The notes under the pieces are model-generated. The model saw only the letters and a program-made list of their open reading frames with translations, was not told where the DNA came from and searched no databases. Source: Escherichia phage P479. Taken from it: a stretch of DNA of 64,000 bases. Both the position numbers and the translations under genes were made by a program. Below, in pieces: positions 5,828 to 26,281 of the stretch (position 1 is its first letter; every line of letters begins with the position of its first letter). The stretch lies in sequence record MW269952.1; one strand, written 5' to 3'.

Positions 5828-6021
5828 TGCAACTATTCTTATCGCAAACTGTTCAGTTAAAAGGTGTGGGTATTCCTGGAATGATTTCTAAGGTTTTGCC
5901 TGCTTTTAAATTCGGTGGTATTGTAATTAAAGAAGCGTATCTAGTCTTGTGGGTTGATGGAACAGAAGACGTTCGCATGAGCGGTGAACTGTCTGTAATC
6001 AAATGTTTAAGGCGAGGATAA
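5827..6021 (+). CDS. hypothetical protein
   Basis: ORF track, 64 aa; coupled to the upstream stop. Confidence 0.35.
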   Translation: MQLFLSQTVQLKGVGIPGMISKVLPAFKFGGIVIKEAYLVLWVDGTEDVRMSGELSVIKCLRRG

Positions 6022-6022
6022 T

Positions 6023-6235
6023 ATGTTTAAGAAACTGATTCAGAAAATTTTGGGAACAGAAATGGTTGAAGTTACTTATTCAGTTATTGACCATAGTCCT
6101 TATCTTCAAGATAACAAAGAAAAAGTTATTAAAAAGATTATCCTTAAAAAGCATAACAGCTTATCTATTGAAGACCGTCTACCTGGTTATGGTCATTGGG
6201 CTGATGTAGATATTATCAGTGTCAAAGATGTCTGA
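6023..6235 (+). CDS. hypothetical protein
   Basis: ORF track, 70 aa. Confidence 0.4.
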   Translation: MFKKLIQKILGTEMVEVTYSVIDHSPYLQDNKEKVIKKIILKKHNSLSIEDRLPGYGHWADVDIISVKDV

Positions 6236-6686
6236 GTTAGAAATCAGAAGCAATTTCCCATGGCCGTCATGTGCATTAAGTAACTTTGCTAAATGGCCTT
6301 TTGTTATGGATGGCATCCAGTTTGGAGGTCTTGAAGGCTTCCTCCAAGGGTGCAAGGTGAGAAATAATGAACAACAAAAACGTATATTTGGGATGTCCGG
6401 ATTGGCCGCCCAGCAAAGTGGAAGAGCTTATGCAAGAGCTGCGGACCGTGGGACGCTTTTCTGGCGTGGAATTCCCTTTTCAAGATACTCTACAGCATGG
6501 AAAGAGTTGTATACAAATGCATATTTTGAAGCAGCGCTCCAAAACAAAGGATTCCGCGACGCATTACAAGCCACAAAGGGCAAAGTTTTAAAGCATTCGA
6601 TGGCGAGCCACCTTACTGTTCATGATACAATATTGACTGAACAAGAATTTATTGACATACTTAACCAATTGAGAGATGCATTATGA
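6228..6686 (+). CDS. NADAR-family (YbiA-like, DUF1768-type) protein; positional equivalent of T4 30.3
   Basis: Motif LSNFAKWPFVMDGIQFGGLEGFLQGCK matches the SNFA-WP...DG...E...K pattern of E. coli YbiA/NADAR as recalled; synteny in the 30.x cluster. Confidence 0.55.
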   Translation: MSELEIRSNFPWPSCALSNFAKWPFVMDGIQFGGLEGFLQGCKVRNNEQQKRIFGMSGLAAQQSGRAYARAADRGTLFWRGIPFSRYSTAWKELYTNAYFEAALQNKGFRDALQATKGKVLKHSMASHLTVHDTILTEQEFIDILNQLRDAL

Positions 6687-7531
6687 AACCCGTTATTTTA
6701 ACCGATATTGATGGCGTATGTTTGTCATGGCAGTCTGGCTTGCCTTATTTCGCTCAAAAATATAATTTACCCCTGGAACATATCCTTAAGATGATTCAGG
6801 ATGAAAAATTTGTGACCCCTGGTAAACTGTTCAATTGTGATGAAGAGTTAGGAGCGCAGTTAATTGAAAAATATAACTGTTCAGATTTTATTCGCTATTT
6901 GTCTCCTTACACAGATGCGTTAAGGGTTATTAATAACCTCAAAGAGCAATATGATTTTGTGGCTGTTACAGCCCTGGGTGATTCTATTGATGCTCGCCTG
7001 AATCGTCAATTCAACCTGAATGCTTTGTTCCCTGGGGCGTTTAAAGAAGTGATGATGTGTGGTCATACAGCCTCTAAAGAAGAGTTATTCCAGAAAGCGA
7101 AGACCAAATATAATGTCGTTTGTTATATTGATGACCTTGCACACCATTGCGACCATGCGAGTGAAATCCTTGAAGTCCCGGTTTATTGGATGGCTCGTGG
7201 TGAACGTGATGCTATTCCTAAAACAGCTTCCAAAGTTTTTAATTGGGACGATGTTGCTGGACAGCTTAAACTGAAACACAAAGATGAACCGGTCAAGCCA
7301 GAATACACCCCTGATGAACTCCGTAAACTGGACGAGCTGTTTCGTGAAACTCGCCGTCTTCAGCAGCAAATGCAGCAAGGCTGGCAGCCAGGTCAACCAT
7401 GGACTCCTGGATATAATCCAGCGTATCCATATCAATATAATCCAGCGTACCCATATCAATATGGTCCACGCGTAGGTACTGGCATTGAATATTGGTACAA
7501 TCAACCGACCGGTGGCCAAGGGGGTAATTGA
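6683..7531 (+). CDS. HAD-superfamily-like hydrolase with Q/P/Y-rich low-complexity C-terminal tail (positional equivalent of T4 30.2)
   Basis: N-terminal ILTDIDGV resembles the HAD phosphatase motif I (DxDG); C-terminus ...QQQMQQGWQPGQPWTPGYNPAYPYQYNPAYPYQYGPRVG... is encoded by a tandem 24-bp repeat. Confidence 0.5.
   Translation: MKPVILTDIDGVCLSWQSGLPYFAQKYNLPLEHILKMIQDEKFVTPGKLFNCDEELGAQLIEKYNCSDFIRYLSPYTDALRVINNLKEQYDFVAVTALGDSIDARLNRQFNLNALFPGAFKEVMMCGHTASKEELFQKAKTKYNVVCYIDDLAHHCDHASEILEVPVYWMARGERDAIPKTASKVFNWDDVAGQLKLKHKDEPVKPEYTPDELRKLDELFRETRRLQQQMQQGWQPGQPWTPGYNPAYPYQYNPAYPYQYGPRVGTGIEYWYNQPTGGQGGN
7414..7461 (+). repeat. tandem 24-bp direct repeat x2 (one mismatch) inside the 6683-7531 CDS
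   Basis: taatccagcgtatccatatcaata / taatccagcgtacccatatcaata; encodes the duplicated NPAYPYQY. Confidence 0.85.
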
Positions 7532-7809
7532 TGTTTGTCGTTCATACTATTTCAGACCATGGTCCAGTCACCACGATGGATTACGGTCATGTTAACCAGT
7601 TTATTCGTCATGTGAATCATAATTACTCGTTTGATATTAATCCGGCCAAGGATAACCCCATCTGGCGGGAATGTGTTGAACAAGGATTTATCTATGTTCA
7701 CTTCATGACTAAAATGAAACCAGATGGGGCGACTAAATTTGTGTTCACTTATCATAAGCGGTTGGATTTGCTTTTGGAAGATGTGGCATATAATAGAGCC
7801 AACGACTAA
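7528..7809 (+). CDS. hypothetical protein (positional equivalent of T4 30.1)
   Basis: ORF track, 93 aa; ATGA overlap with the upstream gene. Confidence 0.45.
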   Translation: MMFVVHTISDHGPVTTMDYGHVNQFIRHVNHNYSFDINPAKDNPIWRECVEQGFIYVHFMTKMKPDGATKFVFTYHKRLDLLLEDVAYNRAND

Positions 7810-7812
7810 GAG

Positions 7813-9351
7813 GTGATTATGATTTTAGATATTTTAAATGAAATTGCTGCAACCGATTCCACTAAAGAGAAACAAGCTATCCTGGAATCGTATTCTGACA
7901 ATGAAACCCTCAAACGTGTGTATCGTTTGACATATTCCAAAGGCATCCAGTTCTATATTAAGAAATGGCCAAAACCTGGGACAACGACTCAAAGCTTTGG
8001 TATGCTGAATATCGATGATATGCTTGACTTTATTGAATTCACATTAGCCTCTCGTAAATTAACAGGTAATGCTGCAATCGAGGAATTATCTGGCTATATT
8101 GCTGATGGTAAAAAAGCAGATGTTGAAGTCCTGCGGCGTGTTATGATGCGTGACCTGGAATGCGGGGCATCCGTATCAATTGCGAATAAGGTTTGGAAAG
8201 GTTTAATTCCTGAACAACCACAGATGCTCGCTTCTTCCTATGATGAAGCCGGTATTGCCAAGAACATTAAGTTCCCGGCCTTTGCGCAATTGAAAGCCGA
8301 CGGCGCTCGGTGTTTTGCAGAAGTTCGTGGCGATGAGTTGGATGATGTTCGATTGCTATCCCGAGCTGGTAACGAATACCTTAAGCTTGACCTCCTTAAA
8401 AAGGAATTGATTGAAGCTACCCGTGAAGCGCGTGAGAGGCATCCTGAGGGCGTTTTGATTGACGGCGAGTTAGTATATCATGAACAGAAAATAGCTCCAC
8501 AGAATGATGGTTTGGGTTTCCTTTTTGACGATTCAGATGAGATTGCTCCTGCAAAAGAAACCGCAGAATCAAGAACATTTTCGAATGGTATGGCAAACAA
8601 ATCATTAAAAGGAACCATTTCTGCAACAGAAGCTTCTTGCATGAAATTCCAGGTTTGGGATTATGTTCCACTGATTGAAGTCTATTCTGATGTTAAGATT
8701 CTCAATCCGTTGAAATACGATGTGCGTTTTGCTGTTCTGGAAAAGATGATTGCAGATAACGTGGTGCTACATGGTTTCGACCGCATGATTCTGATTGAAA
8801 ACCATGTTGTTAACAATCTCGATGAAGCGAAGGTTATCTATAAGAAATATGTGGATGAAGGTCTTGAAGGTATTATCCTTAAGAACATGGCATCGATTTG
8901 GGAAAACAAGCGCTCAAAGAACTTGTACAAGTTCAAAGAAGTAATTGACATTGCAATGGAAATCATTGGATATTACGAGCACGATAAAGACCCGAATAAG
9001 ATTGGCGGTGTTGTGCTTCGTTCTTCTTGTGGTAAGATTACAAATAACTGTGGTTCTGGTTTTAAAGACACAACTCAAGTTAAAGATAAGAAAACCAAAA
9101 AATGGGTTACTATTCCGATTGAGGAGCGTCATGAAATGGACCGTGAAGCCTTGATGGTTAAAGCCCGTAAAGGTGAATTGGTTGGAATGATTGCCGACTG
9201 TGAATGTAATGGTTGGTTGACTTCCGAGACTCGTAAAGATAATACGGTTGCATTGTTCCTGCCGATTATCAAAGGGTTCCGTTTCGATAAAGACCATGCA
9301 GACACATTCGAAGATGTATTTGGCGACTGGTCAAAGACCGGGTTAAAATAA
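7813..9351 (+). CDS. 30: ATP-dependent DNA ligase gp30
   Basis: 512 aa; N-terminus MILDILNEIAATDSTKEKQAILESY... matches recalled T4 ligase; adenylation motif KADG (AQLKADGAR) present. Confidence 0.9.
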   Translation: MIMILDILNEIAATDSTKEKQAILESYSDNETLKRVYRLTYSKGIQFYIKKWPKPGTTTQSFGMLNIDDMLDFIEFTLASRKLTGNAAIEELSGYIADGKKADVEVLRRVMMRDLECGASVSIANKVWKGLIPEQPQMLASSYDEAGIAKNIKFPAFAQLKADGARCFAEVRGDELDDVRLLSRAGNEYLKLDLLKKELIEATREARERHPEGVLIDGELVYHEQKIAPQNDGLGFLFDDSDEIAPAKETAESRTFSNGMANKSLKGTISATEASCMKFQVWDYVPLIEVYSDVKILNPLKYDVRFAVLEKMIADNVVLHGFDRMILIENHVVNNLDEAKVIYKKYVDEGLEGIILKNMASIWENKRSKNLYKFKEVIDIAMEIIGYYEHDKDPNKIGGVVLRSSCGKITNNCGSGFKDTTQVKDKKTKKWVTIPIEERHEMDREALMVKARKGELVGMIADCECNGWLTSETRKDNTVALFLPIIKGFRFDKDHADTFEDVFGDWSKTGLK

Positions 9352-19970: not shown

Positions 19971-20138
19971 TGTCAGATAAGATTTGTGTTGTCTGTAAAA
20001 CTCCAATCGATTCTGCATTGGTTGTGGATACAGACCAAGGTCCGGTGCATCCGGGCGCCTGTTATAATTATGTTCAGAGTTTGCCAGTTACGGAAAATAC
20101 AGAAGAGCAACTGAACGAGACCCAACTTTTAATTTAGC
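19971..20138 (+). CDS. small Cys-containing protein, 55 aa (uvsY.-2 position)
   Basis: ATG at 19971 with RBS gaggag; MSDKICVVCKTPIDS...HPGACYNY suggests a possible CxxC...C metal site. Below the ORF-track cutoff. Confidence 0.35.
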
Positions 20139-20194
20139 TAGTGTTGTTAACCATTTTTGGTTTTGCCCCTTCCTTTTGGTTGGGGCCTTTTTAT

Positions 20195-20422
20195 TTAGAA
20201 ATCTTCGTCTTCTTCGTCGTCCATATCCTCAAGCTCGGCGCGTTTACCGGCAAGAGCATCACGAACACTGATATCATCGGAATCTTTCAGTTCAGCTTCT
20301 TTGCTGCGTTTCTTATAATAGCCTTCCAACTCCTTCAGACCGTCCATGGTCTGACAGGAACCAATCTTAGCCATAAAGCCTTCAATTGATGCTTCGTACA
20401 TAATTTCTTCGAAGGATTTCAT
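20195..20422 (-). CDS. small acidic protein (positional equivalent of T4 UvsW.1)
   Basis: 75 aa with an acidic C-terminus (EDMDDEEDEDF); lies downstream of uvsW, separated from it by the HNH gene. Confidence 0.45.
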   Translation of the reverse strand: MKSFEEIMYEASIEGFMAKIGSCQTMDGLKELEGYYKKRSKEAELKDSDDISVRDALAGKRAELEDMDDEEDEDF

Positions 20423-21207
20423 TATATTTCCACCTGTTTAATAAATTTATCGACCATTTTCCCATAGTGTACTTTAGGATATCCAGCTTCGACAGCGATT
20501 TTGGTAAATCCCGTTACTTTAGGTTTATTGTTATTTATCCAAAGTAAAAATAACTCGTCATATAATAGCCAATGCGGATATTTTTTGGCATGAGTCTCTT
20601 TCCAATTTTTGGAATGGTCTTCACTTCTAAAAGATTTTTTAACACCTTTATTTGCCTTTCCCGCCTTAGAACATGTCGCATAATCACCCGCCTTGACAGG
20701 AGTAAATCCTTTCATAGCTTTAGATTTTTTGTCACGCGTTTCCTGAGACTGTTTGGACCCGGTGTTTTTTGCCCAGGCCTTTTCCAAAGCTTTTAATTTC
20801 GCGGGAGTGAATCCGACTTTTCGCATGGCGTCAATATGTATTTGGAGACGTTCTGCGGACCATTCATATGAACCATGATTATTACCCATCAAAGCTTCAC
20901 TAATTAAATGTGATGCCTTTTCTTTAAGCAGTGTAATGGTTCTTGAACTAACTTCTTTTAGGCGTCGACCGTTTGTCATACCAAATGCTGCGCGCCATAA
21001 TTTACCACCTTGTGCTTTTGCTAAAATAACATGAGCTAATATATGTTCACGAACTGTTAAAGCAACTAAATTATTAGGATGGTTGGAACCTCCAACCGAC
21101 TTTGGTATAATATGATGTATTTCAATTCGACAAGGAGCAGAGGTCTTTGTCCAACCCCTTGTCCTTGCATTTGAAATTAAATCATCGTAAATTTTTTGAT
21201 AATTCAT
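20422..21207 (-). CDS. HNH-family homing endonuclease (Mob-like)
   Basis: 261 aa; N-terminal EIHHIIPKSVGGSNHPNNLVALTVREH is an HNH motif; ATGA-type overlaps with both neighbours. Confidence 0.7.
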   Translation of the reverse strand: MNYQKIYDDLISNARTRGWTKTSAPCRIEIHHIIPKSVGGSNHPNNLVALTVREHILAHVILAKAQGGKLWRAAFGMTNGRRLKEVSSRTITLLKEKASHLISEALMGNNHGSYEWSAERLQIHIDAMRKVGFTPAKLKALEKAWAKNTGSKQSQETRDKKSKAMKGFTPVKAGDYATCSKAGKANKGVKKSFRSEDHSKNWKETHAKKYPHWLLYDELFLLWINNNKPKVTGFTKIAVEAGYPKVHYGKMVDKFIKQVEI

Positions 21208-22703
21208 AGTTCCACATGTTTCACTACATAGTTAAAACGTTCATCAGCATATCGTTGAATACGTTCAAGGCCGTGTTTAAGAAGATAGTTCAAATGAACA
21301 TATTTCTTTTTAGCGTTTGCTGATTTAGGACGGACCCCCATGTCGTCAACGATATCCCAAACATTTGCTTGCGATTTGGATGCGTGTTTTCGAAGTACAC
21401 GACCGATTGTTTGAAGGACAATTACCTTTGATTTTACACCGTGGGCGAAAATAATATGATGGAGGTTTTTAACGGAAATCCCCGTCGAGAATACACCGTA
21501 TGAAGCTACAACAATAATTCCCTTTCCATTCTCTGCCATGACCTTCAGAGCATTACGGGTTTCGGTATCGACTTCCCCAGAAACATAATACACTTTTTCA
21601 TGACCAGCTTCTTTAAGCATTTCAAACATCGATTTGCCGTGCTCGATATTCTTAAACATCAAAAAGACGTTTTCATCTTTTTTAGAAAGCTTGAGTGCAA
21701 GGTTTGTTACCCATTTATTTCGGCGTGTAGCTTTTGTAATTACCTTGATTTCATCCTGATAAGTTTTACCTTTCATTTTAACGGTGAATTCATCAGGGTA
21801 ACGAAGGAAAATACTATTTATTTTAAGGTCAGTAACCTGACCATCTTCCATCAATTTCGATGTTGATACTGGTTTAAAGATATCACCAAACAGACCCATA
21901 TATTGCATAAGGTTGGCTTTGCCATCACGGAGTGAACCTGACAGACCAAATTTAAACATGCAATTCGTAAGGCCTTCGATAACCGTCGAAATCGATTTAC
22001 CTGTAGCCATGTGGCATTCGTCATTCATAAACTGGCCAAACTGTTCAAACCATTCTTTAGGTTGTTTTACAGCCGTCTGATAAGTCGATACATAAATCAT
22101 CGCATCAGAATCGCGTTTAGTCCCAGAACGAATACCCAGACAAGCTGCACGAGGGAAAAGCCGATAATCAACAAAGTCATTAATCATCTGGTCAACAAGG
22201 GCCGTTGTAGGAACAAGGATAAGCACCTTGCCTTCATAGTTCTCGAGATAATATCGCGCCAGAAGCGCCTGGATGAGGCTTTTACCTGCAGACGTAGGTA
22301 AGTTCAGAATCTTTCTTCTGTTGACCAGACCATCATATACGGCGTCAGATTGATACCAATGGGGCGTTATCTTGGTATTGCCTGAATAGATTTCTTTTGA
22401 CTCGACCCATTTGTCGAATTCTTCGCGAGAGATTTCTTCTTTCTCGGTGATTTGCGGGTCAATCCAGAATGAATAACCAAACTGGTCAGCGAACTTTTTA
22501 ATTTGATTAACCAAACCGTATGGTAATTTACGATTGTAATCCAGGAGGCGGATTCGTCCGTCCCAAACTCCCTGCTTGAACTTTGGATTGAAGCGATAGT
22601 TTTCAGCTTCGAAGCTGAAGTAATCACGGAGTTCGTAGAAGATTCCATCTTCACATTCAACATGCACGTGACTAAAATTTAGAAAGTTGATTTTAATATC
22701 CAT
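21204..22703 (-). CDS. uvsW: UvsW DNA/RNA helicase
   Basis: N-terminus MDIKINFLNFSHVHVECEDG...LPTSAGKS (Walker A) and DECH box; matches recalled T4 UvsW. Confidence 0.85.
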   Translation of the reverse strand: MDIKINFLNFSHVHVECEDGIFYELRDYFSFEAENYRFNPKFKQGVWDGRIRLLDYNRKLPYGLVNQIKKFADQFGYSFWIDPQITEKEEISREEFDKWVESKEIYSGNTKITPHWYQSDAVYDGLVNRRKILNLPTSAGKSLIQALLARYYLENYEGKVLILVPTTALVDQMINDFVDYRLFPRAACLGIRSGTKRDSDAMIYVSTYQTAVKQPKEWFEQFGQFMNDECHMATGKSISTVIEGLTNCMFKFGLSGSLRDGKANLMQYMGLFGDIFKPVSTSKLMEDGQVTDLKINSIFLRYPDEFTVKMKGKTYQDEIKVITKATRRNKWVTNLALKLSKKDENVFLMFKNIEHGKSMFEMLKEAGHEKVYYVSGEVDTETRNALKVMAENGKGIIVVASYGVFSTGISVKNLHHIIFAHGVKSKVIVLQTIGRVLRKHASKSQANVWDIVDDMGVRPKSANAKKKYVHLNYLLKHGLERIQRYADERFNYVVKHVEL

Positions 22704-22731
22704 GATGATTCCAAGGTAATAAATATATCTA

Positions 22732-22739
22732 TATTTATA
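22732..22739 (-). promoter_or_regulatory. T4-type late promoter for uvsW
   Basis: + strand tatttata = TATAAATA on -, 29 nt upstream of the uvsW ATG. Confidence 0.55.
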
Positions 22740-22757
22740 CACTAACCGAGGTTCATC

Positions 22758-23423
22758 ATGATTGACAAGAACTACATTGAGGAAATTCGTGTCCTCGAGA
22801 AAAAAGAAGCCAAAGAAAAATTAGCCGAATATGCAGCATCACTTGGTGTTGATGTTAAGAAAACAAAAACCTTTGATAATATGTTGGCTGACCTGGAAGC
22901 AGGACTTAAAGCATTTGCTGACATGCCTATGCCTGATGATAATGAAGGCCTGAGCATCACTGACCTTATCGATGCCGATGATGAATTGTCAGGTGCTAAA
23001 TTTGATGGTGATGAGTCAGCTAAAGAAGAAGCTAAGCTCTTATTTGATGCTCCAACCGAAGCAAAGGTTGAAGTTGTTGAAATCGAAGAACCAGTTGTTG
23101 TGGTTGAAGAAGATGCTCCTTTTGTCGAAGAAAAGTTCGAAGCTGCTGTTGCTAAGGTTATCGAATCTGAAAAACCCGTATTTGCTCTGCCAAAAAACTT
23201 TAGCCCGAATTTAATGCTTATTGGTAAGAACCCTGGATTCTGCACTGTTCCATGGTGGATTTATCAGTGGATTGCCGAGACTCCAGATTGGAAAGAACGT
23301 CCAACTGCTTTCCCACATCCCACCGCACACCAAACTCTATTCAGTTTGATTTATTACATCAATCGTAATGGGTCTGTTCTAGTACGAGAAACTCGTAACT
23401 CATCTTTTGTCACTTTAAAATAA
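22758..23423 (+). CDS. Inh-like protein (positional equivalent of the T4 inhibitor of prohead protease)
   Basis: 221 aa (T4 Inh about 226 aa); lies directly upstream of hoc as in T4; acidic, Ala/Glu/Lys-rich N-terminal half. Confidence 0.4.
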   Translation: MIDKNYIEEIRVLEKKEAKEKLAEYAASLGVDVKKTKTFDNMLADLEAGLKAFADMPMPDDNEGLSITDLIDADDELSGAKFDGDESAKEEAKLLFDAPTEAKVEVVEIEEPVVVVEEDAPFVEEKFEAAVAKVIESEKPVFALPKNFSPNLMLIGKNPGFCTVPWWIYQWIAETPDWKERPTAFPHPTAHQTLFSLIYYINRNGSVLVRETRNSSFVTLK

Positions 23424-23432
23424 GGGTTTATT

Positions 23433-24566
23433 ATGGCTTATACCGTAACTATTGCTCCTTTGGCGGCTACGGCCGTTATTGGGGCAACAACAAATTTCAC
23501 TGCAACCGGTTCCGGTGCTGCAGCTGAAGGTACCGAATCATTTGTCTGGACCGTTGATGGCGTTCCTCAATCTTCTGTGACTGCTGCAATGGATTATGTC
23601 GCTGTTGGTCCAGCAGGCAGTAAGACTATTAAAGTTGTTGCAACCACCACTCCGGCAGACGGGGAACCGGAAACTGCTGAAGCTGAAACAACTTTAACTA
23701 TCCAGAATAAAACAATGCCGGCAATCACGCTGACTTTAGACCCGGCCTCTGTTACTAAAGAAATAGGGCAATCTCAAGTTGTTACTGCTAACGTGACAGG
23801 CGCTCCTTCTGGTGCAACAATCGCTTATGTTTGGAAACGAAATGCCGACGTAATCCCAGGACAAACTGGTAAAACAATCACCGTCACCGAATCGGCTGAA
23901 GCAAATTATACATTGAACTGTGAAGTTACTGTTTCAGCAGCAGATTATGATAATGGCACAGCAACTGAAGGTGCTGCTGTTATCTTTGTTAAGAAAACTA
24001 TGTCAGGTGTTTCTGTAACATTAACCCCAGAATCAATTAATGTTCCGGAAGACACCCCAGCCTCTTTTAAAGCGGATGTAGTCGGCGCACCGAGTGGAGC
24101 TACTTTTGCCTATTCTTGGAAGAAAGACGGTTCTCCTGTGGTTGGCAACACGGATACTCTAGCAATCGATACAAGCGCTGAAGGTTCACAGGTTATTGAA
24201 GTTTCTGTTGTGGTTTCGGCGACTGATTATAACCCGGCGACTGTCACAAAAACTGGTAATGTAACAGTCACGGCTAAAGTCGCACCAGTTCCAGATGGTG
24301 AACTACCTTACGTTCATCCGCTGCCAGTTCGTAATTCAGCTTATATCTGGTGTGGTTGGTGGGTTATGGACGAAATTCAGAAAATGACTCTTGCTGGACA
24401 AGACTGGAAAACTGATGCTCCAGATAGCCCGTATTATTTGCACCGATATACACTTCAAAAAATGATTACCGACTATCCAGAGGTTGATGTACAAGAATCT
24501 CGTAACGGTCGAATTATTCATCGCACCGCTTTAGAAGCTGGTATTATATACGATTACGTTTATTAA
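23433..24566 (+). CDS. hoc: Hoc, highly immunogenic outer capsid protein (Ig-like domains)
   Basis: 377 aa; repeated Ig-like segments; C-terminal ...GELPYVHPLPVRNSAYIWCGWWVMDEIQKMT...YYLHRYTLQKM...PEVDVQESRNG... matches recalled T4 Hoc. Confidence 0.85.
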   Translation: MAYTVTIAPLAATAVIGATTNFTATGSGAAAEGTESFVWTVDGVPQSSVTAAMDYVAVGPAGSKTIKVVATTTPADGEPETAEAETTLTIQNKTMPAITLTLDPASVTKEIGQSQVVTANVTGAPSGATIAYVWKRNADVIPGQTGKTITVTESAEANYTLNCEVTVSAADYDNGTATEGAAVIFVKKTMSGVSVTLTPESINVPEDTPASFKADVVGAPSGATFAYSWKKDGSPVVGNTDTLAIDTSAEGSQVIEVSVVVSATDYNPATVTKTGNVTVTAKVAPVPDGELPYVHPLPVRNSAYIWCGWWVMDEIQKMTLAGQDWKTDAPDSPYYLHRYTLQKMITDYPEVDVQESRNGRIIHRTALEAGIIYDYVY

Positions 24567-24568
24567 TT

Positions 24569-24598
24569 AAAAAGGGACCTTCGGGTCCCTTTGTTTTT
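24569..24598 (+). terminator. rho-independent terminator (GGGACC-ttcg-GGTCCC) after hoc
   Basis: Hairpin plus T-run. Confidence 0.7.
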
Positions 24599-24682
24599 AT
24601 GGTACTGTACAAACGTTGCCTGGCATAAAAACCCTGTTTACAAGTTAAAAATTCTATGATAGGATAGCTTCACTAACTCAAC

Positions 24683-24886
24683 ATGAGAATCATTATGGAT
24701 AAGGTTAAAGTACATTTTCTGCATGAATCTGGTATGACATTTATTGAAATCGCCAAGGTATTAGGCGGGACTGCTAAAGAGATGGCAAAGGCCTGGGTTG
24801 ATGTAGAACAAGCTAAAGCTAAATTTAAAACGAAAGAAAAGATTGTTTATCGTAAACGTTTGAATAACAAAAAGGTGAAGAAATGA
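24683..24886 (+). CDS. hypothetical small protein (24.3 position)
   Basis: ORF track, 67 aa; basic C-terminus. Confidence 0.4.
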   Translation: MRIIMDKVKVHFLHESGMTFIEIAKVLGGTAKEMAKAWVDVEQAKAKFKTKEKIVYRKRLNNKKVKK

Positions 24887-25146
24887 CATTCGCAGAAGAA
24901 CTACGTCAAATCGCAAAAGAATCCCAAGATAAAGTTGCAAATGACTTTATTGCTATATTCCGCAAAGTGGCAGTTGCCGCCGCTGAAAATGGCAAAGATG
25001 CTGTTAATATGGCAGTTTCTGAAAAAGAGTATGAAGAAGGAAACCGCGCAAAGATATCTGAATTTCTGCGAGCAGAAAAATTTACATCATTTACCTGGAA
25101 TTATGATTGGCAAGAAGCCAAGCCAATGCTGTATGTAAAATTCTGA
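24883..25146 (+). CDS. hypothetical small protein (24.2 position)
   Basis: ORF track, 87 aa; ATGA overlap. Confidence 0.4.
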   Translation: MTFAEELRQIAKESQDKVANDFIAIFRKVAVAAAENGKDAVNMAVSEKEYEEGNRAKISEFLRAEKFTSFTWNYDWQEAKPMLYVKF

Positions 25147-25150
25147 CCCT

Positions 25151-25190
25151 TTTTGCTTCAAATAAAAATGCGGTATAATGGTTCTAGACC
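25151..25190 (+). promoter_or_regulatory. MotA-box middle promoter upstream of rnlB
   Basis: TTTGCTTCA box 25151-25159, TATAAT 25173-25178, conserved GGTTCTAGACCCC 25179-25191. Confidence 0.55.
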
Positions 25191-25273
25191 CCTTTGCGAC
25201 TATTAATTCCTTTCAGAGAAAGTATAGTGGGTCTAATTTATAATGATATTTATAACATCAAAAGTGAGAGATT

Positions 25274-26281
25274 ATGTTTAAGAAATACAACAGCCTTGAA
25301 AATCACTATAACAACAAGTTCATTGAAAAGATTCGCCTGCAAGGCTTCACCAGCGGTGAATGGGTAGCTCGCGAGAAGATTCATGGTACCAACTTTTCAT
25401 TAATCATTGAACAAGACAATGTGACATGTGCGAAACGCACTGGACCTATCCTGCCTGCAGAAGATTTCTATGGTTATGAAATTGTACTAAAGAATTATGC
25501 TGATTCTATTAAATCTGTGCAGAAACTTTTGCAGGATATTAATTACCAGGCATACCAGATTTACGGTGAGTTTGCCGGGACAGGTATCCAGAAGAATGTG
25601 GATTACGGTGATAAAGATTTTTATGTATTTGATATCCGCGTTACTAAAGAAGATGGTTTTGAATCCGTCCTGACTGACACACTTATGGAAGCCTTTTGTA
25701 TTATTCATAAGTTTAAAGTTGCCCCGCGCCTGGCTACAGGTAGTTTTGAAGAATTAATTAAGCTACCTAATGACCTGGATTCTGTGGTCCCTGATTACAA
25801 TTTTACAGTGGATAACGCAGGATTGACTACAGCAAATACCACTGATTTTGATGCAAAGGTGGAAGGTAAAGTATTCACTGCTGAAGGATTTGTATTAAAA
25901 CCTGATGTTCCTGCATGGTTACCTAACGGCGAGCGTGTAGCGATTAAATGTAAGAACTCTAAATTCAGTGAAAAGAAAAAGTCTGATAAGCCTATTAAGG
26001 CTGCAGTGGTTCTGAGCCAAAATGATATGGATTTACTGTGGAATTTCACTGATTATGTGACTGTTAACCGTATCAACAATGTTATCAGTAAAATTGGGGA
26101 AGTAACACCGAAGGATTTTGGAAAGGTAATGGGGTTAACAGTTCAAGATATTCTGGAAGAAGCCGGGCGCGAAGGTCTTGAATTGTCCCTGACGGAAAAT
26201 CCTGTTGAAGTTAAAAAGCAACTCATCGCAAATGTAAGAGAAACATTAAGACATGTTTGGATTGCATTAGTTAGTGAATAA
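25274..26281 (+). CDS. rnlB: RNA ligase 2
   Basis: 335 aa; N-terminus [19 protein letters not shown]...[13 protein letters not shown] (ligase KxHGxN-type motif); matches recalled T4 Rnl2. Confidence 0.9.

What the first reader, a model, noticed from the sequence alone, without database searches (positions are those of the whole stretch)
7414..7461. Perfectly phased 24-bp tandem duplication inside a coding sequence
Seen: taatccagcgta(t/c)ccatatcaata occurs twice in tandem, in frame, producing NPAYPYQY-NPAYPYQY in the C-terminal tail of the HAD-like protein. Such repeats are slippage-prone and can vary in copy number between isolates.
Basis: seen in the sequence. Interest (0 to 1): 0.35.

Follow-up and report, generated by a model that had tools for sequence, protein, structure and literature searches.

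The report
In-frame 24-bp duplication in gp30.2 tail
A real 24-base in-frame tandem duplication adds eight amino acids to the floppy, repeat-prone C-terminal linker of a T4-like phage enzyme (gp30.2); the same linker has changed length independently in other T4-like phages, so this is an ordinary length polymorphism.

Summary
Bases 7415-7462 are two head-to-tail 24-bp copies (23/24 identical) that encode NPAYPYQY twice in ORF 6683-7531.

That ORF is gp30.2 of a Gaprivervirus (T4-like). It has a HAD-fold domain (aa 1-200), one helix (aa 210-233) and a Pro/Tyr/Gly/Gln-rich tail (aa 234-282) predicted to be disordered.

Copy number varies among relatives:
- Two copies occur in the window (protein identical to phage P479), in phage 212 and in two metagenomic assemblies.
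- Eleven other Gaprivervirus loci read base by base have one copy.
- No three-copy allele was found.

All two-copy alleles share the same derived synonymous T>C in copy 2 and an identical last 216 nt, on different 5' haplotypes. This points to one origin, stable inheritance and spread by recombination.

The homologous linker changed independently elsewhere: 24 bp x2 in Tequatrovirus Shfl2 and Pu-Krd-SF4, 9 bp x2 in T6, and 33 bp x2 in Erwinia phage Cronus.

The tail is constrained at the protein level (pN/pS 0.07) and ends in a conserved GTGIEY..QPT peptide. The duplication lengthens the spacer in front of that peptide.

Verdict: an ordinary slippage-type coding repeat polymorphism, of low interest. 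The portable terminal peptide is an unexplained side lead.

The parts
6683..7531 (+). gp30.2 coding sequence (282 aa plus stop). Its ATG overlaps the stop of gene 30.3 (ATGA at 6683-6686). Its TGA stop overlaps the ATG of gene 30.1 (TGATG at 7529-7533).
   Evidence: ORF list. PHROG 420 match, E 2.7e-78. Relatives are annotated gp30.2 in SP18 and VR7, in the gene order 30.3-30.2-30.1-ligase. The protein is 100% identical to QWQ55930.1 of Escherichia phage P479.
6683..7282 (+). HAD-fold catalytic domain (aa 1-200), with motif I D8-x-D10, motif II T96, motif III K132 and motif IV D150-D151.
   Evidence: Invariant or nearly invariant columns in 111 homologues. AlphaFold2 pLDDT is about 97 over this domain. 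Foldseek hits HAD hydrolases and 5'(3')-deoxyribonucleotidases at E 3e-8, probability 1.0.
7310..7381 (+). Single long alpha-helix (aa 210-233, PDELRKLDELFRETRRLQQQMQQ) between the HAD domain and the tail.
   Evidence: AlphaFold2 and DSSP give helix 210-233 with pLDDT about 93. PSD2001 and MN01 carry a 9-bp deletion here.
7382..7528 (+). Low-complexity tail (aa 234-282). Composition is P 18%, G 18%, Y 18%, Q 12%, N 8%, W 6%. It is predicted to be disordered.
   Evidence: pLDDT is 46-64 with no secondary structure. Composition. pN/pS is 0.07 among Gapriverviruses.
7400..7411 (+). Conserved island W-T-P-G (aa 240-243) immediately upstream of the repeat. Tequatroviruses have W-R-T-P-G at the same place.
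   Evidence: Tail comparisons.
7415..7438 (+). Repeat copy 1 (AATCCAGCGTATCCATATCAATAT = NPAYPYQY, aa 245-252). It carries the ancestral TAT codon (T7426).
   Evidence: All 11 one-copy relatives read have TAT at this codon.
7439..7462 (+). Repeat copy 2 (AATCCAGCGTACCCATATCAATAT = NPAYPYQY, aa 253-260). It carries the derived synonymous C7450.
   Evidence: The same C is present in every two-copy allele found (phage 212, SRR13089998, SRR13090001).
7459..7474 (+). Degenerate partial third copy (ATATGGTCCACGCGTA versus ATATAATCCAGCGTA). Together with ATAT at 7411-7414 it supplies the short direct repeat, 24 bp apart, on which misalignment could occur.
   Evidence: TRF counts 2.6 copies over 7411-7474. 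The one-copy alleles already contain ATAT..TCCA..CGTA 24 bp apart.
7475..7510 (+). Conserved terminal peptide G-T-G-I-E-Y-W-Y-N-Q-P-T (aa 265-276). The family motif is G.G(I/V)EY(L/W)..QPT.
   Evidence: Present in 16 of 119 cluster representatives from several genera. Synonymous-only variation among Gapriverviruses and different codons in other genera.
7518..7533 (+). Shine-Dalgarno-like AAGGGGG and the ATG of gene 30.1, lying inside the last codons of gp30.2 (…QGGN*).
   Evidence: Read directly from the sequence. The start of 30.1 is annotated at the same place in phage 212, DK-13 and SP18.

Best explanation
The feature is a single historical, in-frame tandem duplication of 24 bp. It most likely arose by slipped-strand mispairing, or by unequal homologous recombination, between short direct repeats (ATAT..TCCA..CGTA) that already lay 24 bp apart in the one-copy ancestor.

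It sits in a stretch built from degenerate N/H-P-Y codon units (AATCCNTAT-like). That stretch forms the disordered spacer of the gp30.2 C-terminal tail, between a W-T-P-G island and a conserved terminal peptide (GTGIEYWYNQPT).

The effect on the protein is to lengthen a flexible tether by eight residues, from about 17 to about 25 residues between W240 and the GTG of the motif. That is still shorter than the roughly 29 residues in Tequatrovirus. The HAD phosphatase domain and the terminal peptide are untouched, so the change is probably neutral or nearly so.

After the duplication, one synonymous T>C arose in copy 2. The allele was then inherited stably and moved between gp30.2 backgrounds by the homologous recombination typical of T4-like phages.

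Shown: the duplication, its polymorphism, its single origin, recurrence in other genera, the disorder prediction, and protein-level constraint on the tail. Inferred: the slippage or unequal-crossover mechanism, near-neutrality, and the tether role of the linker.
For: Structure and position of the repeat.

One-copy versus two-copy alleles, with ancestral TAT in all 11 one-copy loci.

In the phage collection, only 1 of 32 Gaprivervirus records that cover the gene has the 849-bp form. The rest span 825, 816 or fewer bp.

The two-copy carriers are identical over the last 216 nt of the gene. They differ at 16-21 sites upstream, and the SRR alleles carry an SP18/DK-13-type 5' haplotype. They are not monophyletic on codons 1-233.

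The tail is predicted disordered (pLDDT 46-64; residues 252-263 below 50).

Spacer length varies naturally across the family. About half of the cluster representatives lack a tail altogether (59 of 119 are 235 aa or shorter).

Independent repeat changes in the homologous linker:
- Shfl2 and Pu-Krd-SF4 have 24 bp x2 (23/24 identical).
- T6 has TCCATATCA x2.
- EC.W13-3 and Shfl2 have TAGTGG x2.
- Tequatrovirus match spans run from 834 to 867 bp in 9 classes.
- Cronus has a 33-bp duplication relative to a metagenomic relative.

No promoter-like site, no Rfam family and only a weak folding signal at the repeat.
Against: The tail is under strong purifying selection on amino-acid sequence within the genus (pN/pS 0.07, against 0.04 for the HAD domain). 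An 8-residue insertion is therefore not guaranteed to be neutral.

The mechanism, replication slippage versus unequal recombination, cannot be told apart from sequence. The flanking microhomology is short: 4 nt exact, and about 12 of 15 nt with one indel.

No population or passage data were available, so present-day instability is untested.

The function of the terminal peptide, and hence the tether model, is inferred only.
Confidence: 0.8

Rival explanations
1. Adaptive tuning. The extra eight residues were selected because they change the reach or valency of the tail. For example, they might place the terminal GTGIEY..QPT peptide differently relative to the HAD domain, or add a second NPAYPYQY binding unit. 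The allele would have spread by recombination because it is advantageous.
For: The tail sequence is strongly constrained at the protein level. The identical 216-nt 3' segment is found on different 5' haplotypes, as expected if it spread. Parallel 8-residue expansions occur in Tequatrovirus.
Against: Only 2 of about 27 distinct Gaprivervirus isolates carry it. Spacer length varies widely across the family, and half of the homologue clusters have no tail at all. Mosaic recombination is the norm in T4-like phages and needs no selection.
Confidence: 0.13
2. Contingency-type hypervariable repeat. The array changes copy number at high frequency within populations, giving rapid reversible variation of gp30.2.
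For: Head-to-tail in-frame repeats are slippage substrates. Many length classes exist among Tequatrovirus gp30.2 genes.
Against: There are only two copies, and the longest perfect tandem register is already broken by the T>C. Every two-copy allele found is identical by descent. No 3-copy allele turned up in the phage collection, IMG/VR, the metagenome scan or an exact protein look-up.
Confidence: 0.05
3. A nucleic-acid-level element. On this reading the duplication matters as DNA or RNA, for example two TATAAT -10 boxes forming an internal promoter for 30.1 and ligase, or an RNA hairpin between copy 2 and the downstream GAATATTGGTAC.
For: Each copy contains TATAAT. The MFE fold pairs GUACCCAUAUCAAUAUGG with CAUUGAAUAUUGGUAC, z-score -2.0.
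Against: The promoter scan reports no site at the repeat, and the total found is no more than in shuffled sequence. No Rfam match. 5 of 200 shuffles fold at least as well. Substitutions among relatives are overwhelmingly synonymous, the signature of a protein constraint.
Confidence: 0.02
4. Sequencing or assembly artefact that duplicated a short repeat.
For: Short tandem repeats can be mis-assembled.
Against: The same 48-bp array, with the same internal T/C difference, occurs in four independent sources: the window (whose gp30.2 protein is identical to that of phage P479), phage 212, SRR13089998 and SRR13090001. The reading frame and the downstream conserved motif are preserved.
Confidence: 0.005

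Closest known systems
Bacteriophage T4 gp30.2 family (PHROG 420), an uncharacterised HAD-like protein encoded between 30.3 and 30.1 next to DNA ligase
   Same: Full-length PHROG match at E 2.7e-78. The gene order 30.3 / 30.2 / 30.1 / ligase is the same. It is 66% identical to the Tequatrovirus protein P0002 over 99% of its length. The tail architecture is shared: W(R)TPG, then N/H-P-Y repeats, then G.G(I/V)EY..(Q/R)PT.
   Different: It carries a lineage-specific extra NPAYPYQY unit. The Tequatrovirus linkers use different repeat units (HPY, PYNPYYTH). No function has been published for the family; the literature search found nothing for 'gp30.2'.
Coding minisatellites (VNTRs) in disordered protein linkers, such as the 24-bp octapeptide repeats of mammalian PrP or the repeat-length variants of bacterial surface proteins (from general knowledge, not tested here)
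   Same: The unit is a multiple of three, arranged head to tail, in a Pro/Gly/aromatic/Gln-rich low-complexity region. Copy number differs between related genomes. The presumed origin is slippage or unequal crossover.
   Different: There are only one or two copies, with no long array. There is no evidence of high-frequency change, of phenotypic switching or of aggregation behaviour.
Deletions and duplications between short direct repeats in T4 (the classical rII deletion and duplication studies; from general knowledge)
   Same: The duplication is bounded by a short direct repeat (ATAT, extended imperfectly) spaced exactly one unit apart in the one-copy allele.
   Different: This is a natural polymorphism fixed in a sublineage, not a laboratory mutant. 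The mechanism is inferred, not demonstrated.
5'(3')-deoxyribonucleotidase / NT5C-type HAD phosphatases (e.g. PDB 2jao, 2i7d, 1mh9)
   Same: The HAD Rossmannoid fold with a small helical cap and the DxD nucleophile motif. Foldseek probability 1.0, TM-score normalised to target length 0.63-0.68. A weak profile hit to 2jao at E 0.3.
   Different: Sequence identity is only 15-19%. No Pfam family is matched. The substrate is unknown. The cellular enzymes lack the helix, disordered linker and terminal peptide.

Membership tests
HAD (haloacid dehalogenase-like) phosphatase superfamily; this test applies to the host protein | Motif I DxDx(T/V) with a nucleophile Asp at the end of strand 1 | tested here: met
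   The protein begins MKPVILTDIDGV. D8 and D10 are invariant in 111 homologues.
HAD (haloacid dehalogenase-like) phosphatase superfamily; this test applies to the host protein | Motif II Ser/Thr, motif III Lys/Arg and motif IV acidic pair (DD or GDxxxD) | tested here: met
   T96 is at least 90% conserved. K132, D150 and D151 are invariant.
HAD (haloacid dehalogenase-like) phosphatase superfamily; this test applies to the host protein | Rossmannoid alpha/beta core fold | tested here: met
   AlphaFold2 model with pLDDT about 97 over aa 1-200. 112 PDB matches at E <= 0.001; the 50 best listed are almost all HAD-superfamily enzymes.
HAD (haloacid dehalogenase-like) phosphatase superfamily; this test applies to the host protein | Mg2+-dependent phosphatase activity | not testable with these tools
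   This needs an enzyme assay.
T4 gp30.2 family (PHROG 420) | Significant full-length profile match | tested here: met
   phrog_420, E 2.7e-78, residues 1-276 against profile positions 12-264 of 267.
T4 gp30.2 family (PHROG 420) | Conserved position between 30.3 and 30.1, upstream of DNA ligase | tested here: met
   PF08010 (Phage_30_3) upstream and DUF3045 downstream. The relatives' annotation agrees.
Coding tandem repeat polymorphism (VNTR) | Head-to-tail copies of a unit whose length is a multiple of 3, within an ORF | tested here: met
   24-bp unit, two copies, 23/24 identical, in frame.
Coding tandem repeat polymorphism (VNTR) | Different copy numbers in closely related genomes | tested here: met
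   Two copies in 4 sources, one copy in 11 Gaprivervirus loci. Gene spans of 849 versus 825, 816 and 813 bp.
Contingency locus / hypermutable simple-sequence repeat | Recurrent independent copy-number changes within a lineage, meaning many alleles that are not identical by descent | tested here: not met
   All two-copy alleles share the T>C and an identical 216-nt 3' segment. No 3-copy allele was found. Recurrence is seen only between genera.
Contingency locus / hypermutable simple-sequence repeat | High mutation rate measured within populations | not testable with these tools
   This needs amplicon deep sequencing or a fluctuation assay.
Internal sigma-70 / T4 promoter created by the TATAAT in each copy | -10 hexamer with an appropriately spaced -35 hexamer (or MotA box) | tested here: not met
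   The promoter scan lists no site at 7380-7470. By eye, no TTGACA-like or TGCTT box lies at the right distance.

The most novel reading that the evidence does not exclude
The gp30.2 tail may be a tethered short linear motif. On this reading the terminal peptide GTGIEY(L/W)x(R/N)QPT(SK) is a portable docking signal for a conserved, still unknown partner, either a host hub protein or a phage complex. The repeat-prone N/H-P-Y linker would be an evolvable tether whose length is tuned by duplications such as this one.

Support for this reading:
- The same 14-residue peptide is encoded with different codons, including TCA versus AGC for Ser.
- It ends both gp30.2 of several T4-like genera and a set of otherwise unrelated 71-116-aa ORFs in environmental contigs.
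- In each case it follows a Pro-rich spacer.
Probability: 0.2. Interest if true: 0.55.

Novelty: new member of a known kind. Interest (0 to 1): 0.2.

Why it matters
The duplication by itself matters little. It is a neutral-looking length polymorphism, useful at most as a strain marker for the P479/212 sublineage of Gaprivervirus. It also gives a clean example of single-origin spread of an allele by recombination.

It does draw attention to the gp30.2 tail. Many T4-like phages attach a disordered, length-variable linker ending in a conserved peptide to a conserved but uncharacterised HAD phosphatase. The amino-acid sequence of that tail is nevertheless strongly constrained.

If the terminal peptide is a docking motif, it would give a handle on the function and the partners of gp30.2, a protein of the T4 ligase region for which the literature searches here found nothing.

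Tried and rejected
- **Promoter or terminator reading of the repeat.** The scan found nothing at the repeat and no excess over shuffles.
- **Known RNA family.** None in 6000-9000 at E <= 1. The local fold has a z-score of only -2.0.
- **Pfam domain for gp30.2.** No family matched. The HAD assignment had to come from motifs, PHROGs, the AlphaFold model and Foldseek. The PDB profile search by sequence was not significant (E 0.24-0.3).
- **More than two copies.**
  - The junction and two-copy patterns gave 0 hits in IMG/VR and in JGI metagenomes.
  - The one-copy pattern gave only 3 and 1 hits there, so those denominators are small.
  - Exact look-up of synthetic 1-copy and 3-copy versions of the window protein found neither. 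This is a weak negative, because an exact match is required.
- **Literature on gp30.2 or gene 30.2.** No papers found. One search failed on term length.
- **The terminal motif as a DNA-level element in gp30.2.** Rejected, because its codons vary synonymously within Gaprivervirus and differ in other genera.
- **Solved structure containing the terminal peptide.** Only chance-level matches, for example RpoB 'VGTGIEY' at E 1.7.
- **Monophyly of two-copy carriers on the 5' two-thirds of the gene.** Not found. This is explained by intragenic mosaicism, not by multiple origins.

Full report
**1. The observation**

Reading 6400-7800 shows the 24-mer TAATCCAGCGTA(T/C)CCATATCAATA twice in tandem at 7414-7461, exactly as reported. 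The single difference is T7426 versus C7450.

In codon register the copies are 7415-7438 and 7439-7462. They encode NPAYPYQY twice (aa 245-260) in ORF 6683-7531, which is 282 aa.

Tandem Repeats Finder gives period 24, 2.6 copies and score 98 for 7411-7474. The next best array in the whole window scores 45. The repeat finder agrees. The chance expectation for such a pair in 64 kb is about 1.7e-8.

**2. The gene**

The ORF is the homologue of T4 gene 30.2.
- It matches PHROG 420 at E 2.7e-78.
- It lies between a Phage_30_3 (PF08010) gene and a DUF3045 (30.1) gene, upstream of DNA ligase.
- Close relatives are annotated gp30.2 in Shigella phage SP18 and phage VR7.

The genome is a Gaprivervirus of the T4-like Straboviridae. 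The protein is 100% identical to QWQ55930.1 of Escherichia phage P479.

- D8, D10, K132, D150 and D151 are invariant and T96 nearly so in 111 homologues. These are HAD motifs I-IV.
- An AlphaFold2 model built on that alignment has pLDDT about 97 for aa 1-200.
- Foldseek matches HAD hydrolases, including 5'(3')-deoxyribonucleotidases, at probability 1.0.

After the domain come one confident helix (aa 210-233) and then a tail (aa 234-282) with pLDDT 46-64 and no secondary structure. Residues 252-263, inside the repeat, are below 50. The tail is 18% Pro, 18% Gly, 18% Tyr and 12% Gln.

**3. Copy number in relatives**

Megablast of the gene against 50,697 phage records found 32 records that cover at least 80% of it. 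Only phage 212 (PQ765507, 98.2% identity) spans 849 bp. The others that align end to end span 825 or 816 bp.

Translating and aligning the relatives gives the following.
- One NPAYPYQY unit is present in DK-13, SP18, PSD2001, TH41, VR7, MN01, VR20, VR25, VR26 and a metagenomic contig.
- Two units are present only in the window, in phage 212 and in two Logan assemblies (SRR13089998, SRR13090001).
- The 90%-identity protein cluster has 99 members. The 15 members listed range from 263 to 282 aa, and two of them are 282 aa.

No three-copy allele was found in the phage collection, in IMG/VR or JGI metagenomes by junction pattern, or by exact look-up of a synthetic 3-copy protein. The metagenome denominators are small.

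**4. History of the allele**

Every one-copy relative has TAT at the codon that differs between the copies. C7450 is therefore a synonymous substitution that arose after the duplication, and all two-copy alleles share it.

Among the four two-copy carriers, the last 216 nt of the gene (helix, tail and array) are identical. All 16-21 differences lie upstream of nt 631. The SRR alleles carry an SP18/DK-13-type 5' haplotype there. Accordingly, a tree of codons 1-233 does not group the two-copy carriers.

The simplest reading is one duplication event, stable inheritance, and shuffling of the 3' segment onto different backgrounds by homologous recombination.

The one-copy allele already contains ATAT..TCCA..CGTA twice, 24 bp apart: ATATAATCCAGCGTA and ATATGGTCCACGCGTA. 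This is the partial third copy that TRF counts. It is the kind of short direct repeat on which slipped-strand mispairing or unequal crossover generates a duplication. The mechanism is inferred, not shown.

**5. Is the linker generally repeat-prone?**

Yes, at family level.

In Tequatrovirus, tblastn matches to the full 279-aa gp30.2 query span 834 to 867 bp, in nine length classes among the 40 records sampled across the ranking. Six loci were read, and all the length differences lie in the tail at the homologous place after W-R-T-P-G. That place is built of AATCCNTAT-like (N/H-P-Y) units:
- T6 has TCCATATCA twice.
- Shfl2 and Pu-Krd-SF4 each have an independent 24-bp tandem duplication (23/24 identical), giving (H/N)PYYTHPY-type units twice.
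- EC.W13-3 and Shfl2 have TAGTGG twice.

In Roskildevirus, Erwinia phage Cronus has PMTPCDPPYPY / PMTPCDPVYPG, a 33-bp duplication that is absent from a metagenomic relative.

Gapriverviruses also differ by a 9-bp deletion in the helix (PSD2001, MN01), a 6-bp deletion after the repeat (VR7, VR25) and alternative C-terminal ends.

**6. Is the tail functional?**

Across 119 cluster representatives, 59 are 235 aa or shorter and have no tail. The other 60 have tails of very different sequence. The tail is therefore dispensable for the fold.

Within Gaprivervirus, however, substitutions in the tail are overwhelmingly synonymous. pN/pS is 0.07, against 0.04 for the HAD domain and 0.13 for the helix.

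Two islands are conserved across genera: W(R)TPG, and a terminal G.G(I/V)EY(L/W)..QPT peptide 4-10 residues from the C-terminus. The terminal peptide is found in 16 representative clusters, including Tequatrovirus, Gaprivervirus and unclassified metagenomic T4-like relatives such as L024 and L025.

The duplication lies in the variable spacer between the two islands. It raises the spacer from about 17 to about 25 residues, which is within the natural range; Tequatrovirus has about 29.

The best-supported effect is therefore a longer flexible tether in front of a conserved peptide, probably with little consequence. This is inference.

**7. Other readings checked**

- No sigma-70-like promoter is called at the repeat despite the TATAAT in each copy.
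- No Rfam family matches.
- The local RNA fold is only marginally better than shuffles (z -2.0).
- The minus-strand ORF across the region (7085-7519) has no support.
- An artefact is excluded by the four independent sources.

**8. Side lead: a portable terminal peptide**

A profile of the terminal peptide built only from gp30.2 tails also hit small ORFs of 73-81 aa. These end in ...LTGGILPPSEPLS..PGTGIEYL(S/K/R)(H/R)QPTSK. A full scan of 1.84 billion representatives, using a profile that included those ORFs, found more, with unrelated N-terminal parts.

In the T4-like genes the peptide is encoded by varying codons: GGT/GGG/GGA, ACT/ACG/ACA, and Ser as TCA. In the small ORFs Ser is AGC. The shared peptide is therefore maintained at the protein level, not as shared DNA.

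In the small ORFs the DNA has a second layer.
- The blocks TTGACTGGTGGGATT and CAGCCCACCAGCAAGTAA are invariant at all codon positions.
- These blocks pair with each other inside a long helix that has three compensatory pairs.
- The ends of the helix resemble integron attC core sites (…AAC / GTTRRRY).
- Related palindromic elements follow the neighbouring small ORFs in contig L016.
- No Rfam family matches.

The partner or function of the peptide is unknown, as is the relation between the two contexts.

**9. Verdict**

This is a new example of a well-known kind of variation: a coding tandem repeat polymorphism in a disordered linker. Interest is low (0.2). The most novel reading not excluded is that the tail is an evolvable tether for a portable docking peptide.

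Noticed in passing
window 7475-7510; loci L016:1698-1928, L019:616-846, L020:643-888, L022:227-469, L023:160-381; L024, L025: The gp30.2 terminal peptide GTGIEYLx(R/H)QPT(SK) also ends a set of otherwise unrelated small ORFs (71-116 aa) in environmental contigs, always after a Pro-rich spacer. It is encoded with different codons in the two contexts (Ser TCA versus AGC), so it looks like a portable peptide motif of unknown partner.
   Followed up: partly
L016:1810-1960 and equivalents in L019, L020, L022, L023; further copies in L016 near 90-180, 397-490, 694-800, 2142-2245: The 3' ends of those small ORFs lie inside a palindromic element of about 125 nt. The long helix is GCCGCCGAAC..CTTG(A)CTGGTGGG / CCCACCAGCAAG..GTTCGGCGG, with 3 compensatory pairs and a bulged A. 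Its ends resemble integron attC core sites (AAC / GTTRRRY). Related elements follow each neighbouring small ORF, like a cassette array, although tail-like genes (TMP_3) sit nearby. No Rfam match.
   Followed up: partly
L026, L027, L028, L031 (Tequatrovirus Shfl2, Pu-Krd-SF4, G8, EC.W13-3), last ~60 nt of gp30.2: A subset of Tequatroviruses has lost the conserved terminal motif. GGIEYLYNRPT is replaced by GDAGYFNRLT, through point changes plus a 3-nt deletion, while the final SGDNIFQGAF is kept. The motif is therefore not universally required.
   Followed up: no
window 6683-7531 compared with L001, L012, L013, L003, L002: gp30.2 is an intragenic mosaic among Gapriverviruses. The two-copy carriers share an identical last 216 nt but have window-type or SP18/DK-13-type haplotypes over nt 168-381.
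   Followed up: yes
window 6683-6686 and 7518-7533: Genes 30.3/30.2 and 30.2/30.1 overlap by ATGA and TGATG. The Shine-Dalgarno-like AAGGGGG of 30.1 lies inside the last gp30.2 codons (…QGGN). This may explain the alternative C-terminal ends (GGQGGN, GGRG, GGWS) seen among relatives.
   Followed up: partly
protein P0021 (302 aa, Logan): One homologue has the HAD domain followed by a DUF3045 (gp30.1) domain in a single ORF with no low-complexity tail. It appears to be a gp30.2-gp30.1 fusion, or a lost stop codon.
   Followed up: no
window, whole: The window's gp30.2 is identical to that of Escherichia phage P479 (172,033 bp). No record in the phage collection used here matched the window more closely than 98.2% over gp30.2 (phage 212), or about 94-97% over 20000-26000.
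   Followed up: partly
PDB 8i23_C and 7l7b_C (RNA polymerase beta), residues ~677-713: The heptapeptide (V/I)GTGIEY of the tail motif also occurs in the RNA polymerase beta subunit of two solved bacterial enzymes. The match is not significant (E 1.7-1.8) and is probably chance.
   Followed up: no
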